DNA of 64,000 bases from Octopus vulgaris (lineage: Eukaryota). Below are positions 7,297-62,444 of the stretch, in pieces. Under the pieces are notes generated by a model. That model was not told where the DNA came from and did no database searches. It saw only the letters and a list, made by a program, of their open reading frames with translations. A program made the position numbers and the translations under genes. The DNA lies in contig OX597816.1 in the NCBI GenBank assembly GCA_951406725.2, positions 6,262,001 to 6,326,000 of the forward strand. Direction: 5' to 3'. Every line of letters starts with the position of its first letter. The first letter of the stretch is position 1.

Positions 7297-7402
7297 TATA
7301 TATACATATATATATGAAACTATATATATATATACATATATATTCATATATATATATATATATATATATATAGGAAAAAAGCAACAAGAATGGATTAAAA
7401 TA

Positions 7403-7487
7403 TCGGTACAATTGTTTCGTACGAGGACATCTTTAATAAGCTACAAAAAAATGCAGTAAATATAGATGGCTCGTACTCGTCAGCCGA
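7403..7487 (-). ncRNA. Type I hammerhead ribozyme, canonical core, long stem II
   Basis: Minus strand: UCGG-CUGACGA-GUACGAG...CUCGUAC-GAAA-CAAUUG-UA-CCGA; palindromic stem III ACAAUUGU; predicted cleavage after GUA. Confidence 0.85.
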
Positions 7488-7781
7488 AAAAACATCAGAG
7501 ATTCCCAAACATCAAAAGGGGTAGATACAAATGAGGGTGTAAGTTTAACTGCATTAAAGAAAGTTCGATTCCTGGAGATCCGATGAAAGGTCTTGAACTT
7601 ACAGAATATATGCATGTCCATATATAGTTCATAGTGAATTGTTAATCAAGTTATGTGAAGAAAATTTTGGATACAAATTCTTTCATCGGATCTCCAGGAA
7701 TCGAACTTTCTTCAATGCAGTTAAACTCACACCCTCATTTGTATCTACCCCTTTTGATGTTTGGGAATCTCTGATGTTTTT

Positions 7782-7864
7782 TCGGCTGACGAGTACGAGC
7801 CATCTATATTTACTGCATTTTTGTAGCTTATTAAAGATGTCCTCGTACGAAGCAATTGTACCGA
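7782..7864 (+). ncRNA. Type I hammerhead ribozyme, second copy with A15.1>G
   Basis: tcgg-CTGACGA-gtacgag...ctcgtac-GAAG-caattg-ta-ccga. Confidence 0.7.
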
Positions 7865-9239
7865 TATTTTAATCCATTCTTGTTGCTTTTTTCTTATTTG
7901 TAATCACCCCACTTGTCGTATGGTTAACACCATATAGATTTCCGGTGCATCCTAGTTAAGGACCATATTCATGTGAATTCATTAGAATTCACTTGAATCT
8001 CAATTACTTAAACCGAATATATATATATATATATATATATATATATATATATATATATATATATATATATATATATATATATATATATATACATATATAT
8101 ACAAGTAGAAGAGCCACACAGTTAGATAGTGTAACATGTAAAGAGGATCTATCTATTTCTTTGACTCTCTGTCAGTTTGCTCTTAATACTGTCTATCCAG
8201 AATTCTTGAATTCTACTAGTCTACTATTTTGCTATCATCGGAGCATAAATTTACACAAATGTATATACAACCTGGAGAAAGAAATAGAAACCAATACTAA
8301 ATCCAAGACTAGTTCTAAAACTGGTCCCGTGAGTACAATTCTTTTCTCTTGATTTCTATTAAACACACCGCTTATCCTGATTTGTACTAAATACACTGAA
8401 CTCTCCCACACACACCCAGATATAGCCACGCATTTCCGAATCTATCGACAGAAATTTTTCAACGGTGCATTTACTATTATACATCAAGTCATCAATAACT
8501 GAATGTACAGTGTATAAAACCGTCCCACTGAATATGGCCAATAATGTTCTAAAACGCCATCGGGTAAAAAACGAAATCGGTGCACTGATAAACGCGTGGT
8601 ACGTACCACCATAACGATTGTGGAAAGGCTAATGTCTACGGTAAAATCGCTGAAAATTAGAGTCACAGTCCTTTTACAGATCTGTAAAACAGATCGAAAA
8701 CAAACAAAAAAGAAATCACAAGATCATTTCATACTTTACACACGCACATGGCAACACTAGAAGCCATACTTGTCAATGGATGTAGTGCACCAAATGGCCC
8801 GACTCCAACAGGTCAGGGCTCACTTCAACGACCCGATAGCAAGCAACAAACAACATCTTTATTGATATCACTATCTGACCTAATTCCATCCAAGACTACA
8901 GTGGCAAGCCAGGACTCACTACCACAACAACAGCAGCCTGCTACTGCTACTATATTGGAAGCACCTTGCTTGGCACCATTATCTGACCTGATTCCACCCA
9001 ATACAACAACAACAGCAGCCGTTCAAGAATTTGGACCTGGAGTTCTCCATTTCCAGCGACTTCGAGGGCCACCTCCCAGTGGTGTCGGGTGTCAATGAAG
9101 AGCCCTCGACTAAAACAAGATGACCAAAGTTTTTTCTCCCGCCTCTAAGCCCTAGACCATCACCTAATCACCCTTACCCGTCTTGTTGCTTAACAACAAC
9201 AACAACAACAACAGCAACAACAGTCTGCTACTGCTACTA

Positions 9240-9420
9240 CACAAAAAACAACAACGCGGGGACGTGGTACATGTAAAGTATTTGCAGACGCTCAGGGAAG
9301 GAAAGAAAGATAGTTTAACGTTTCGAGCAGACACTCTTCTTCGAAAACAGATGAAAGTCCAATAGAAAGGAAGACGGAGGAAGAAAATCGCCAACGATTC
9401 ACATGTGGTTACATTTTGAA
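9240..9420 (-). mobile_element. Short repeat with minimal HHR-like motif (agagc/gctc-GAAACGT family)
   Basis: Homologous to 33400-33625; motif 9313-9348 on minus strand: guuu-UCGAAGA-agag-ugucug-cuc-GAAACGUU-aaac. Confidence 0.65.
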
Positions 9421-9449
9421 ATATATATATATAAATATATATATATAGT

Positions 9450-9758
9450 GACGTATATTTGCCATTTAAATATAGCTAACCCCTAAGGGTGGACGCTACT
9501 GTAGTTTGTAGCCCCAGGAGGACACCTCCTCCAGCTGGCTATAGACACACTTTCTGTGCCCTATCAGTATTTGCAAAGGGAAGCCATCCTTCCCGTCTTC
9601 AACTTATAATACACACGGACTCGAGTTTCTGGGTATTGACTCGTCATCGGCGTGTGACAATCACAGTTGTCGATGAGAAGTAGGTTTCCTTCACAAATAC
9701 TTAAACCTTTTTCCAGTATCGATAGACACTGATATCGAAAAAGTGTAAATAAGCAACT
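9450..9758 (-). mobile_element. HHR-bearing non-autonomous repeat (related to 40697-41081)
   Basis: Shares ctccagctggctata block with 40777-40791; flanked by (TA)n. Confidence 0.6.
9612..9656 (-). ncRNA. Type I hammerhead variant (CCGAUGA core)
   Basis: cacacg-CCGAUGA-cgagu-caau-accca-GAAA-CUCGAG-UC-cgugug; perfect 6-bp stem I, palindromic stem III ACUCGAGU; stem II damaged. Confidence 0.7.
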
Positions 9759-59946: not shown

Positions 59947-60347
59947 GTTTTTACTCTTTTACTTGTTTCGGTCATTTGACTGTGGCCATGCTGGAGCACC
60001 GCTTTGAGTCGAGCAAATCGACCCCAGGACTTATTCTTTGTAAACCTAGTACTTATTCTATCTGTCTCTTTTGCCGAACCGCTAAGTTACGGCGACGTAA
60101 ACACACCAGTATCGGTTGTCAAGCGATGTTGGGAGAACAAACACAGACACACAAACATACACACACACACACATATATATACAACGGGCTTCTTTCAGTT
60201 TCCGTCTACCAAATCCACTCACAAGGCTTTGGTCGGCCCGAGGCTATAGTAGCAGACACTTGCCCAAGGTGCCACGCAGTAGGACTGAACCCGGAATCAT
60301 GTGGTTGGTTAGCAAGCTACTAACCACATAGCCACTCCTGCGCCTAT
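59947..60347 (-). mobile_element. SINE family B, full length
   Basis: Homology. Confidence 0.92.
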
Positions 60348-60589
60348 GTTAGTCGTAATCTCAAGATAATGATCTGACAAAATGGGAAGAGCGTCGGGGA
60401 GAAGCGCCTTATAGTGTCCCTTCCGTCTCTTGGTGCTTTGAGTTTAATTCCCGCCTCAACTTTACTGTTCACCATTCAGGAGATCGATACAGTCAAGAAC
60501 CAATCAATCAACTGGAATCGATATCAGCGATATCGATTAAGCCCCTCACGTCATAATTACTGGGCTTCTGTCTTAATCAGAAGTAATTA

Positions 60590-60990
60590 TTAGTTTCAAA
60601 TTTTCGCACAAGGCTAACAATGACGGCGGAGGGGGCAAGCCGATTACATCGACCCCAGTGGCAGAATCGTTAGCACGCCGGGCGAAATGTGTAGCCGTAT
60701 TTCGTCTGCCGTTACGTTATGAGTTCAAATTCCGCCGAGGTCGACTTTGCCTTTCTTCCTTTCGGGGTCGATAAATTAAGTACCAGTTACACACTGGGGT
60801 CGATATAATCGACTTAATCCGTTTGTCTGTCCTTATTTGTCCCCTCTGTGTTTAGCCCCTTGTGGGTAGTAAAGAAATAGGTATTTATTTCATTGACCCT
60901 GGAAGGATAAAAAGGCAAAATCGACCCCAGCAGCATTTGAACTCAGAATGTAAAGTCGGAAAAAATGCCGCTAAGCATTTTGCTCGCCGC
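60590..60990. mobile_element. Young plus-strand SINE A (60659-60880) nested in an older minus-strand SINE A
   Basis: Old copy split at cgaccccagtg / ggtatttattt. Confidence 0.85.
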
Positions 60991-61387
60991 TTTTCAGTTC
61001 GAAGTTTTTACTAATTTACAATGTTAGATTGATGGATTTGTAGAGAAGTTGAGTATCGAACAAAATGTCATCTGCTATTTCTTCCGACTGTACGTTCTGA
61101 GTTCGAATCACGCCTGCATTTACTTTGCCTTTCATCTTTTCGTATCCGATAAAACTAAGTACCAGTCAAGTAGAGTAATCAATGGTTACCGTCAAATCCT
61201 GTCTCTAGTTTCAGCTAATGAGTCTCTGCGGGAAAAAAATCATTACGTTTGTCATCTTCAGTGTAACATCTGTGTTTTTGGTTTCGCTTTGGGTTTTGAT
61301 TGGTTTGTTTGTTTGTTGTTTTTTTTGGTATTTTGCTTTTGTTTTGTTTGTTTGTTTTTGTCAAGAATGATATAAATAACTGTTCAT

Positions 61388-61815
61388 CGGCGCAGGAGTA
61401 GCTGTGTGGTGAGTGACTTGCTTCCCTACCACATGGTTCCGGGTTCGTTCCAACTGCGTGGCACCTTGGGCAAGTGTCTTCTACTATGGCCGCGGGCCGA
61501 CCAAAGCCTTGTGAGTGGATTTGGTAGACGGAAACTGAAAGAATCCCGTTATATATACATATGTGTGTGTGTGTGTGTGTGTGTGTGTGTGCGTGCGTGT
61601 GTGTGTGTGTGTGTGTGTGTGTCTTCCCTCCATCGCACGACAACCAATGTCGATATGTTTACGTCCCAGTAACATTAGCGGTTCGGCAAAAGGGACCGAT
61701 AGAATAAGTACTAGGTTTACAAAGAATAAGTTCCAAGGTCGATTTGTTCGACTAAAAGTGATGCTCCAGCATGGCCGCAGTCAAATGAGTGAAACAAATA
61801 AAAGAATAAAAGTGC
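61388..61815 (+). mobile_element. SINE family B
   Basis: Homology; internal (TG)n. Confidence 0.9.
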
Positions 61816-62148
61816 AAAAGAATTTAAACATGACATTATAGAATATAAATCCCCGCTCTTTCTCTCCTTCTCAGTACCTCTCTCCCCCTCTCCCTCCTCT
61901 CTCTCTCTCTCTCTATCTCTCTCTCTCTCTCTTTCTCTGTGCCTCGTCTGCCCCACAAATCTAATACGTTGTTTATTTTTCAAAAACGTTTTTTTCTTTT
62001 CCATATCCAAAAAGCATTTTCAAAGAATACATAAATTGACTAAGGCCCAGAAACTTTATGTCTTCAAATCTCGCCAGGAAAATTAGTACCAGTAACATAA
62101 TAGGGTGTATTCAACCGTTTGTTTCAAAGTTAAAAAGAACTCAAAATA

Positions 62149-62444
62149 CGTTATTTACATATGCCCGTGGGCATATGGCGTAGGGGTTAAGAGCGCGGGC
62201 TACTAACCCCAAGACTCCGAGTTCGATTCTAGGCAGTGACCTGAATAATAATAAAAATAACAATAATAATAACATCGAAAAATACCTTAGGAATGAGAAC
62301 CCAGGTTCTCATTTCCCCAAACTACCTGATGAAGGCTGGAGGGTATATCAGCCGAAACGTTGTGTTAACAATAAACAAGATGAGGACAAATATCCGTCAA
62401 ATGTAAATAATGTAAATAATTCCGCATCTCTTAAACATAGAATT
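62149..62444 (+). mobile_element. tRNA-headed element containing a hammerhead ribozyme (candidate HHR-SINE / Pol III retrozyme)
   Basis: A-box tggcgtagggg 62176-62186, B-box gagttcgattct 62219-62230, HHR 62321-62366, flanking direct repeat gaactcaaa (62137-62145 / 62445-62453). Confidence 0.75.
62321..62366 (+). ncRNA. Minimal type I hammerhead ribozyme
   Basis: CTGATGA(62326)-a-ggctg-gagggtatat-cagcc-GAAA-CG-TT-gtgtt; stem III reduced to palindrome ACGU. Confidence 0.75.

What the first reader, a model, noticed from the sequence alone, without database searches (positions are those of the whole stretch)
7374..62366. Extreme density of hammerhead motifs (~13 in 64 kb) with family-specific palindromic stem III sequences
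Canonical CUGANGA cores lie at 7403(-), 7782(+), 38926(+), 40863(-) and 62321(+). Variants lie at 9313(-), 9612(-), ~10217(+), 19101(+), 27613(+), 33481(+), 41553(+) and 41763(-). Every motif has a (near-)self-complementary sequence after GAA: ACAAUUGU, ACAGCUGU, AUUGCGAU, ACUCGAGU, ACCAUGGU, ACCGGU or ACGU. Established: such short stems III favour dimeric (double-hammerhead) cleavage. Inference: distinct palindromes could act as family-specific pairing codes, and this genome may hold a very large and diverse HHR repertoire.
Basis: partly seen in the sequence, partly recalled or inferred. Interest (0 to 1): 0.75.

Follow-up and report, generated by a model that had tools for sequence, protein, structure and literature searches.

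The report
Hammerhead ribozymes of Penelope-like retrotransposons
The 13 motifs are real hammerhead-shaped RNA sequences at the ends of eight families of repeated jumping-gene pieces, likely self-cutting in pairs as already published; the window is at most about twice as rich as the rest of its genome, and the palindromes are shared between unrelated families, so they are not by themselves a family code.

Summary
All 13 motifs are at the stated places; a dead 14th was missed. They are minimal type I hammerheads of eight high-copy repeat families in an octopus-like 2.8-Gb genome. Three families lie downstream of Penelope-like RT/GIY-YIG frames, two form ~350-bp tandem retrozyme arrays, and the rest show the same insertion layout. 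Most window copies are damaged. The palindromic stem III is real: 26 of 32 hits of a palindrome-blind search were perfect palindromes, and it covaries among subfamilies, as published dimer cleavage predicts. The density is not local: 45 strict and 92 recognisable copies per Mb in 1 Mb of evenly spaced samples (about 100,000-260,000 genome-wide). The 'pairing code' is not supported: unrelated families share palindromes more than chance (8 pairs versus 2.7), and any partner choice would need stem I too. The unusual part is the core: all four Watson-Crick pairs occur at positions 3-8 in multi-copy families, with an A-U/G-C swap inside one lineage. I found no paper on natural purine-3 cores, but could not read Lunse 2017. 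The scan noted the code idea on another genome and purine-3 cores in this genome before. Cleavage is untested.

The parts
7403..7487 (-). Family F1 hammerhead, intact: core CUGACGA, 4-bp stem I, 7-bp stem II with long loop, stem III ACAAUUGU, H17=A at 7407; inverted copy of a pair set in (TA)n
   Evidence: family copies 96-99% alike
7782..7864 (+). Family F1 hammerhead, forward copy with the longer 3' tail; A15.1 changed to G, likely impaired
9313..9348 (-). Family F7 (ACGU) hammerhead, decayed core UCGAAGA
9612..9656 (-). Family F4 hammerhead (core CCGAUGA, stem III ACUCGAGU), solo unit of a ~352-bp tandem retrozyme-like repeat; stem II carries one change
9786..10030 (+). Broken C-terminal piece of a Penelope-like GIY-YIG endonuclease upstream of the F8 motif
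10215..10253 (+). Family F8 hammerhead, core AUGAUUA (A3-U8 pair), stem III ACCGGU; stem I damaged
19099..19135 (+). Family F7 hammerhead, core CUGUUGA (A6U), stem II mismatch
26658..26789 (-). Inverted 5' piece of the same endonuclease frame (5' inversion typical of Penelope-like insertions)
26842..27411 (+). 5'-truncated frame with Zn-finger linker and GIY-YIG endonuclease of a Neptune-like element; full relatives carry RVT_1 and GIY-YIG
27613..27651 (+). Family F8 hammerhead, core AUGAAUA (A3-U8 pair), 6-bp stem I, very short stem II, stem III ACCAUGGU, 200 nt behind the endonuclease stop
33480..33514 (+). Family F7 hammerhead, core CCGACGA (U4C), extra A9.1, stem III ACGU; matches its family
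33792..33827 (+).
38926..39041 (+). Family F2 hammerhead, core CUGAAGA, long stem II, stem III ACAGCUGU, only 2 contiguous pairs in stem I; end of a very young Hydra-like element
40863..40905 (-). Family F3 hammerhead, core CUGAUGA, stem III AUUGCGAU (one change from AUCGCGAU); solo unit of a ~350-bp retrozyme-like repeat
41553..41588 (+). Family F7 hammerhead, core CUGUAGA (A6U), extra A9.1, stem III ACGU; matches its family
41763..41800 (-). Family F5 hammerhead; family core UUGAAAA (U3-A8 pair), this copy A6G; stem III ACCGGU; family lies 650-760 nt behind a Neptune-like endonuclease
62320..62366 (+). Family F6 hammerhead, core CUGAUGA, extra A9.1, 5-bp stem II, stem III ACGU; stem I carries a change

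Best explanation
The motifs are mostly decayed genomic copies of minimal type I hammerhead sequences carried at the ends of Penelope-like retrotransposons and their short non-coding derivatives, which likely cut their RNA as pairs. In the parent element two copies on a tandem transcript would join: the two palindromes pair to make stem III, and the core of one copy pairs through stem I with the cut strand of the other, cleaving after H17 (inferred from published work; the element's protein may be needed). Selection therefore keeps each palindrome self-complementary but does not need it to be unique; partner choice would come from closeness on one RNA plus stems I and III together. The window is crowded because these elements have left one recognisable end about every 11 kb of the genome; half are solo copies with no partner in cis.
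For: Shown: RT plus GIY-YIG frames next to F8 (12 of 14 anchored copies, most fetched by the endonuclease search), F5 (3 of 34 at a fixed 650-760 nt) and F2 (pLTR-ORF-pLTR, 5.6 kb, with inverted 5' copy); one locus links F7; F3 and F4 form ~350-bp tandem arrays. In 1 Mb of evenly spaced samples 22 of 23 opposite-strand pairs are divergent, as in 5' inversions. Palindrome-blind search: 26 of 32 perfect, 5 one mismatch; shuffles gave 1-7 hits per Mb, 0-1 palindromic. F8 alignment: two-sided changes in stem I, stem II, stem III and the 3-8 pair; 39 such cells against 13.8 in shuffles and at most 8 in slid controls. Stem III cannot fold alone (+2.4 to +6.0 kcal/mol, or no hairpin) but self-pairs at -1.7 to -11.2. 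Published: PMC4209133, PMC6765202, PMC7229834, PMC11167929.
Against: No cleavage, transcript or circle was shown here. F1, F6 and F9 have no demonstrated link to a protein frame. None of 50 sampled F6/F7 copies starts within 3 nt of the cut and 41 span it, so the DNA holds no trace of cleavage; PMC11167929 reports that cleavage was not needed for insertion in vitro. Only 11 of 92 sampled copies have a same-strand family partner within 1.5 kb. The most abundant family often has A6U or U4C cores, changes described as lowering activity (PMC3088659 for A6C and U4C). Shuffle control (a) ignores relatedness; only 5 pairs vary on both sides.
Confidence: 0.86

Rival explanations
1. Distinct palindromes are family-specific pairing codes that evolved to stop cross-cleavage between co-resident elements, or in a weaker form stem I plus stem III together form such a key.
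For: Within F8, sister subfamilies share stem I but differ in palindrome (ACCGGU, ACCGCGGU, ACCAUGGU; mixed duplex -3.1 to -6.8 against -8.3 to -14.1 kcal/mol); F4 and the L031 array share a compatible stem I but differ in palindrome; none of 190 type pairs is compatible in both stems.
Against: 10 of 190 pairs have identical palindromes; sharing among 16 lineages is above random (8 against 2.7, P=0.006); 12 of 16 start with A-C; four-base palindromes allow only four words; only about 0.2 doubly compatible pairs are expected by chance, so finding none says little. Divergence with compensation explains the pattern without selection for specificity.
Confidence: 0.1
2. The motif is kept as a paired RNA structure (dimerisation or protein-binding signal) and cleavage is weak or incidental.
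For: No copies start at the cut (0 of 50); frequent A6U/U4C cores and weak stems I or II; low in vitro activity (PMC4209133) and no RNA-seq ends at the cut in an anole element (PMC11167929); Naiad elements reported to spread without such motifs (10.1101/2021.04.23.441226).
Against: The 3-8 pair, which forms in the active fold (PMC3884650), is kept through all four Watson-Crick forms, and H17 is A, C or U in all 20 types.
Confidence: 0.2
3. The matches are chance hits in AT-rich, microsatellite-rich DNA.
For: 31 CUGANGA sites and over 150 GAA-palindrome sites occur in the window; Rfam scores none.
Against: Shuffles give 0-1 strict hits per Mb against 45; every motif belongs to a multi-copy family with the same architecture and covariation.
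Confidence: 0.01

Closest known systems
Minimal hammerheads (min-HHR) in pLTRs of metazoan Penelope-like elements (Cervera and De la Pena 2014, PMC4209133; abstract, results, discussion and part of methods read, supplement searched by words)
   Same: Type I topology, no or palindromic stem III, extra base after A9, many divergent families per genome, mostly solo truncated copies, opposite-strand pairs 100-700 bp apart, U3-A8 core variant.
   Different: Counts here (about 100,000-260,000 by extrapolation, dead copies included, other search rules) exceed the 2,000-9,000 reported there; A3-U8 and G3-C8 cores were not in the text I read.
Dimer-cleaving short-stem-III hammerheads of Penelope-like retrotransposons (Lunse, Weinberg, Breaker 2017; not held, seen only as cited in PMC6765202 and PMC10085705)
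   Same: Palindromic very short stem III, association with these elements, cleavage as dimers.
   Different: Cannot tell whether it already lists purine-3 cores or tests mixed dimers.
Non-LTR retrozymes (Cervera and De la Pena 2020, PMC7229834, passages; Li et al. 2026, 10.64898/2026.07.22.740005, abstract to methods)
   Same: F3, F4 and the L031 array are ~350-bp non-coding tandem units with one type I hammerhead each.
   Different: Circular RNA not tested; window copies are solo units.
Neptune and Hydra clades of Penelope-like elements (Craig et al. 2021, 10.1101/2021.04.23.441226; passages and the Hydra section)
   Same: F8 and F5 frames have the Zn-finger linker before a C-terminal GIY-YIG; F2 has DKT, CxCX5C and (TA)n targets.
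   Different: F2 is 5.6 kb with RT and endonuclease in different frames in 4 of 4 long copies that hold the junction; no tree was built, so clade names are by motif only.
Natural hammerhead core variants (Perreault et al. 2011, PMC3088659, section on core variation read)
   Same: U3-A8, U4C, changes at A6, U13a insertion and one- or two-pair stem II are described there.
   Different: Only U3-A8 is given as natural covariation at 3-8; here A3-U8 and G3-C8 are family-wide.

Membership tests
min-HHR of metazoan Penelope-like elements | Type I order: stem I, core 3-9, stem II, GAAA, UH, stem I | tested here: met
   All eight families; covariation in F8
min-HHR of metazoan Penelope-like elements | Palindromic 15.2-16.2 and loop 3 | tested here: met
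   26 of 32 palindrome-blind hits perfect, 5 one mismatch; shuffles 0-1
min-HHR of metazoan Penelope-like elements | Extra base between 9 and 10.1 and a G10.1-C11.1 pair | tested here: inconclusive
   Both in F6, F7, F9; G-C without extra base in F1, F2, F8; a mismatch before stem II in F3, F4
min-HHR of metazoan Penelope-like elements | Lies in the pLTR/3' end of an RT plus GIY-YIG element | tested here: met
   Met for F2, F5, F8; one locus for F7; not shown for F1, F6, F9
min-HHR of metazoan Penelope-like elements | Partial tandems, inverted 5' copies, microsatellite targets, one-sided tail | tested here: met
   46 solo, 35 inverted, 11 tandem of 92; 22 of 23 pairs divergent; F1 tail
min-HHR of metazoan Penelope-like elements | Self-cleavage as a dimer | not testable with these tools
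   Only energies: monomer hairpin unfavourable, self-duplex favourable
Non-LTR retrozymes (F3, F4) | Tandem ~300-bp non-coding units, one type I hammerhead each | tested here: met
   F4 array at ~352-bp spacing in L253; F3 at 350-bp spacing in L186 and L254
Non-LTR retrozymes (F3, F4) | Expressed as circular RNA | not tested
Neptune clade (F8, F5) | CX2-5CxxC linker and CCHH in a C-terminal GIY-YIG behind RT | tested here: met
   Read from window 26998-27408 and L251; Pfam RVT_1 and GIY-YIG on L251
Neptune clade (F8, F5) | RT falls in the Neptune branch | not tested
   No reference sequences at hand
Hydra clade (F2) | DKT, CxCX5C linker, no CCHH, (TA)n target | tested here: met
   Read from L246-L249 against the section read; Pfam gave no hit
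Hydra clade (F2) | Generally under 3 kb with a single frame | tested here: not met
   5.6 kb, two frames in 4 of 4 copies holding the junction; so 'Hydra-like' only
Family-specific palindrome code (proposed) | Palindromes unique to a family | tested here: not met
   8 shared pairs among 16 lineages, random mean 2.7

The most novel reading that the evidence does not exclude
This genome is a natural mutagenesis library of dimer hammerheads: active families use all four Watson-Crick pairs at core positions 3-8, including A3-U8 and G3-C8 forms not yet reported from nature, and sister subfamilies that share stem I change their palindrome so that each cleaves only with its own kind, making stem I plus stem III a self-recognition key.
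Probability: 0.12. Interest if true: 0.7.

Novelty: new variant of a known kind. Interest (0 to 1): 0.35.

Why it matters
The class and the dimer mechanism are published, so the dense cluster is ordinary for such a genome. Two things add value. First, scale: about 100,000 or more strict motifs that Rfam does not score here, and that a recent octopus repeat annotation does not mention (no occurrence of 'ribozyme' or 'hammerhead', PMC13282606). Second, family-wide A3-U8 and G3-C8 cores with a swap inside one lineage: evolutionary support for the 3-8 pair of the active fold in minimal, element-borne hammerheads, a sign that cleavage is under selection (an open question for these elements), and a class that CUGANGA or UUGANAA searches would miss. 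The F8 subfamilies give a ready natural set for like-versus-mixed dimer assays.

Tried and rejected
Rfam: no match at gathering score in the window; the E-value listing was filled by microsatellite matches to miRNA models (150 of 324 shown, none a hammerhead); nothing relevant in 40600-41500. First descriptor was too strict and found 1 of 13. F5 first looked core-less until the U3-A8 core was recognised. Hydra-like protein pieces near F1 in 4 of 25 loci were rejected as a link: mixed strands and (TA)n breaks suggest nesting. F9 shows no compensating subfamily: of the first 100 of 197 non-G3 copies, 2 are A3-U8. The flank tree did not resolve the G3-C8 copies of F8 as one branch, so number and direction of swaps are open (4 of its 44 rows were left out of the alignment as deleted or mis-anchored). 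Run search: no RNA holder listed; contigs from four runs cover the F8 end but cannot show ends or expression. Pfam and NCBIfam gave no hit on the truncated window endonuclease or on F2 frames. The start-at-cut test was unusable for F1 and F9 (microsatellite noise) and is reported for F6 and F7 only. Paper searches: A3-U8/A3U8/U3-A8/U3A8 with hammerhead gave only PMC4209133; G3-C8/G3C8/C3G/G8C/G8U gave 16 listed papers, of which I read passages of two, both about engineered mutants; heterodimer/palindrome search gave no paper on a family code in its listing. Lunse 2017, Przybilski 2007 and Arkhipova 2017 could not be read; one supplementary file of PMC4209133 was not searchable. These may bear on the novelty of purine-3 cores.
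Full report
Source. The window is G000:C3:6262001-6326000 of a 2.8-Gb genome in 227 contigs, about 35% GC and full of microsatellites. Its repeats look octopus-like to me (recalled, from no call).

Observation. A dead 14th lies at 33792-33827. A strict descriptor (stem I at least 3, free Watson-Crick pair at 3-8, at most one other core change, stem II at least 3, perfect palindrome) finds 4 in the window and 1 in 30 shuffles. The others are damaged copies of families whose common form is a complete motif. 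Only the 7403 copy is canonical and undamaged; 38926, 27613, 33480 and 41553 match or nearly match their families.

Families. Own-genome searches gave about 40 scored copies each, out of 726-2379 first-look candidates, for the six stretches tried. Eight families result. F1 (7403/7782) is an inverted-plus-forward pair in (TA)n with a one-sided tail. F2 (38926) has 40 of 40 scored copies identical over 151 nt; L246 shows inverted copy, terminal repeat, RT and endonuclease frames, terminal repeat, 5.6 kb apart, with Hydra-like motifs. F3 (40863) and F4 (9612) are related ~350-bp units that also form tandem arrays. F5 (41763) lies 650-760 nt behind a Neptune-like endonuclease in 3 of 34 copies. 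F8 (10215, 27613) lies about 200 nt behind GIY-YIG frames in the window itself; longer copies carry RVT_1 and GIY-YIG. F7 (four motifs and the dead one) is the commonest, mostly ~200-bp units; one locus runs back into an RT and endonuclease. F6 has no protein link shown. Three further families were tied to Neptune-like endonucleases in 14 stretches taken from a GIY-YIG search.

Density. In 100 evenly spaced 10-kb stretches the strict descriptor finds 45 (7 in one array) against 0-1 in five shuffles; a library of 30 representatives finds 92 recognisable copies (bootstrap 65-119), 0 in shuffled or reversed DNA. That extrapolates to roughly 100,000-130,000 strict and 180,000-330,000 recognisable copies. 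The window holds 4 strict (2.9 expected) and 14 recognisable (mean 5.9, P about 0.025, library biased to the window); the 60 kb of flanks hold 4 and 7. Published counts by other rules: about 4,000 in coelacanth, 9,000 in Xenopus tropicalis, 2,000 plus 1,300 in Schistosoma (PMC4209133), up to 120,000 in axolotl (PMC7229834), 235 Rfam hits in giant squid (PMC6962438).

Palindromes. With no palindrome asked for, 26 of 32 hits were perfect palindromes and 5 had one mismatch; shuffles gave 1-7 hits, 0-1 palindromic. In F8, 124 exact pattern matches (0 in the control) have a free centre; of the first 100 listed, 77 have none, 18 AU, 2 GC, 1 GU, 2 odd; these are subfamilies, not independent events. 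On 40 aligned F8 copies, 5 of 14 pairs change on both sides, among them the stem III centre (AU 21, GC 4). Alone, stem III cannot fold; as a self-duplex it can.

Code. In a double hammerhead stem I is also formed between partners (established model; PMC4209133 Fig. 1 legend, and my reading of it), so a partner must fit both stems. Among 20 multi-copy types, 10 of 190 pairs share a palindrome, none of these 10 has 4 cross pairs in stem I, and the 4 pairs with cross-fitting stem I at both sites differ in palindrome. Sharing among 16 lineages is above random (8 against 2.7, P=0.006). The palindrome is therefore no family code; a combined key is possible but not supported beyond chance. In the samples, 46 of 92 copies are solo, 35 have only an opposite-strand partner and 11 a tandem partner; no intact window motif has a same-strand family partner nearby.

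Core. F5 and several other families have U3-A8, already described. F8 has A3-U8; stem I covariation fixes the register. Of 25 F8-pattern matches without A3, 16 are G3-C8, 4 G3-U8, 4 unpaired and 1 unrelated. A separate family outside the window, F9, is G3-C8 in 47 GUGAACA plus 3 other G3-C8 cores of 50 descriptor hits (loci overlap), with 11 copies in the 1-Mb sample. So all four pairs occur. The pair belongs to the active fold (PMC3884650 passages); swapped pairs work in engineered ribozymes (PMC3088659 section; partial rescue in an anole element, PMC11167929 passages). My searches found only U3-A8 as natural, but Lunse 2017 was not readable. An unreviewed note of this scan reports the same purine-3 cores in this genome; I had found them before that look-up, and it is not independent support.

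Mechanism. Shown: sequence architecture, covariation, element context, copy numbers. Inferred from published work: transcription of tandems, dimer formation, cleavage after H17, help from the element's protein. Against an essential role: 0 of 50 F6/F7 copies start within 3 nt of the cut and 41 span it, matching the report that uncut RNA is the main substrate.

Verdict. Real, well supported, and a known kind; density is a genome property; the code idea fails as stated; purine-3 cores are the one new variant. Interest 0.35.

Noticed in passing
L246:1882-4759, also L247, L248, L249: In the very young Hydra-like family F2, RT and endonuclease lie in different frames with the same overlap in 4 of 4 long copies that hold the junction; no standard slippery heptamer seen. 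Programmed shift, a change in the master copy or an assembly error are all open.
   Followed up: partly
L304-L333; L039, L272, L294: Family F9: G3-C8 core, stem III AAUAUU, 7-bp stem I, often as head-to-head inverted pairs; 11 copies in 1 Mb of samples; parent element not found.
   Followed up: partly
L107, L111, L112, L114, L251, L252: An F8 subfamily reads GUAAA (U13a-like insertion) with a changed but paired stem I and longer stem III (9-10 nt).
   Followed up: partly
L031:2300-4560: Tandem array of ~359-bp units, each with a canonical hammerhead (stem III ACCGGU), five on one strand and two on the other: a classical retrozyme layout.
   Followed up: partly
L356:745-3087: 781-aa RT plus GIY-YIG frame found at the same length in many places: an apparently young, intact Neptune-like family; a relative carries a hammerhead with a 9-nt near-palindrome.
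   Followed up: partly
window 17960-18717 (-): 3' end of a restriction-like-endonuclease LINE ending in (AAT)n; earlier notes on this genome describe a rearranged hammerhead in such HERO-like 3' ends. Not checked here.
   Followed up: no
window 39024+224; L146-L170: Many F2 copies end at the same point 224 nt behind GAA, just after a pyrimidine run and AG that resembles a splice acceptor, then (TA)n; some run about 200 nt further.
   Followed up: no
window 481-729, 13420-13668, 17046-17481, 46593-46849, 49471-49817, 58544-59152, 60634-60882, 63224-63750: A SINE-like repeat in at least 12 copies, in places as 184-bp tandems.
   Followed up: no
window 15989-16266 and 21087-21364: Two 95%-alike copies of another repeat in opposite orientation, 4.8 kb apart.
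   Followed up: no
window 29476-29997, 10647-11174, 47497-48168, 50229-50600: Broken pieces resembling Tc1/mariner transposases and CR1-type LINE ends (by eye; Pfam gave only a weak HTH_48 hit).
   Followed up: no
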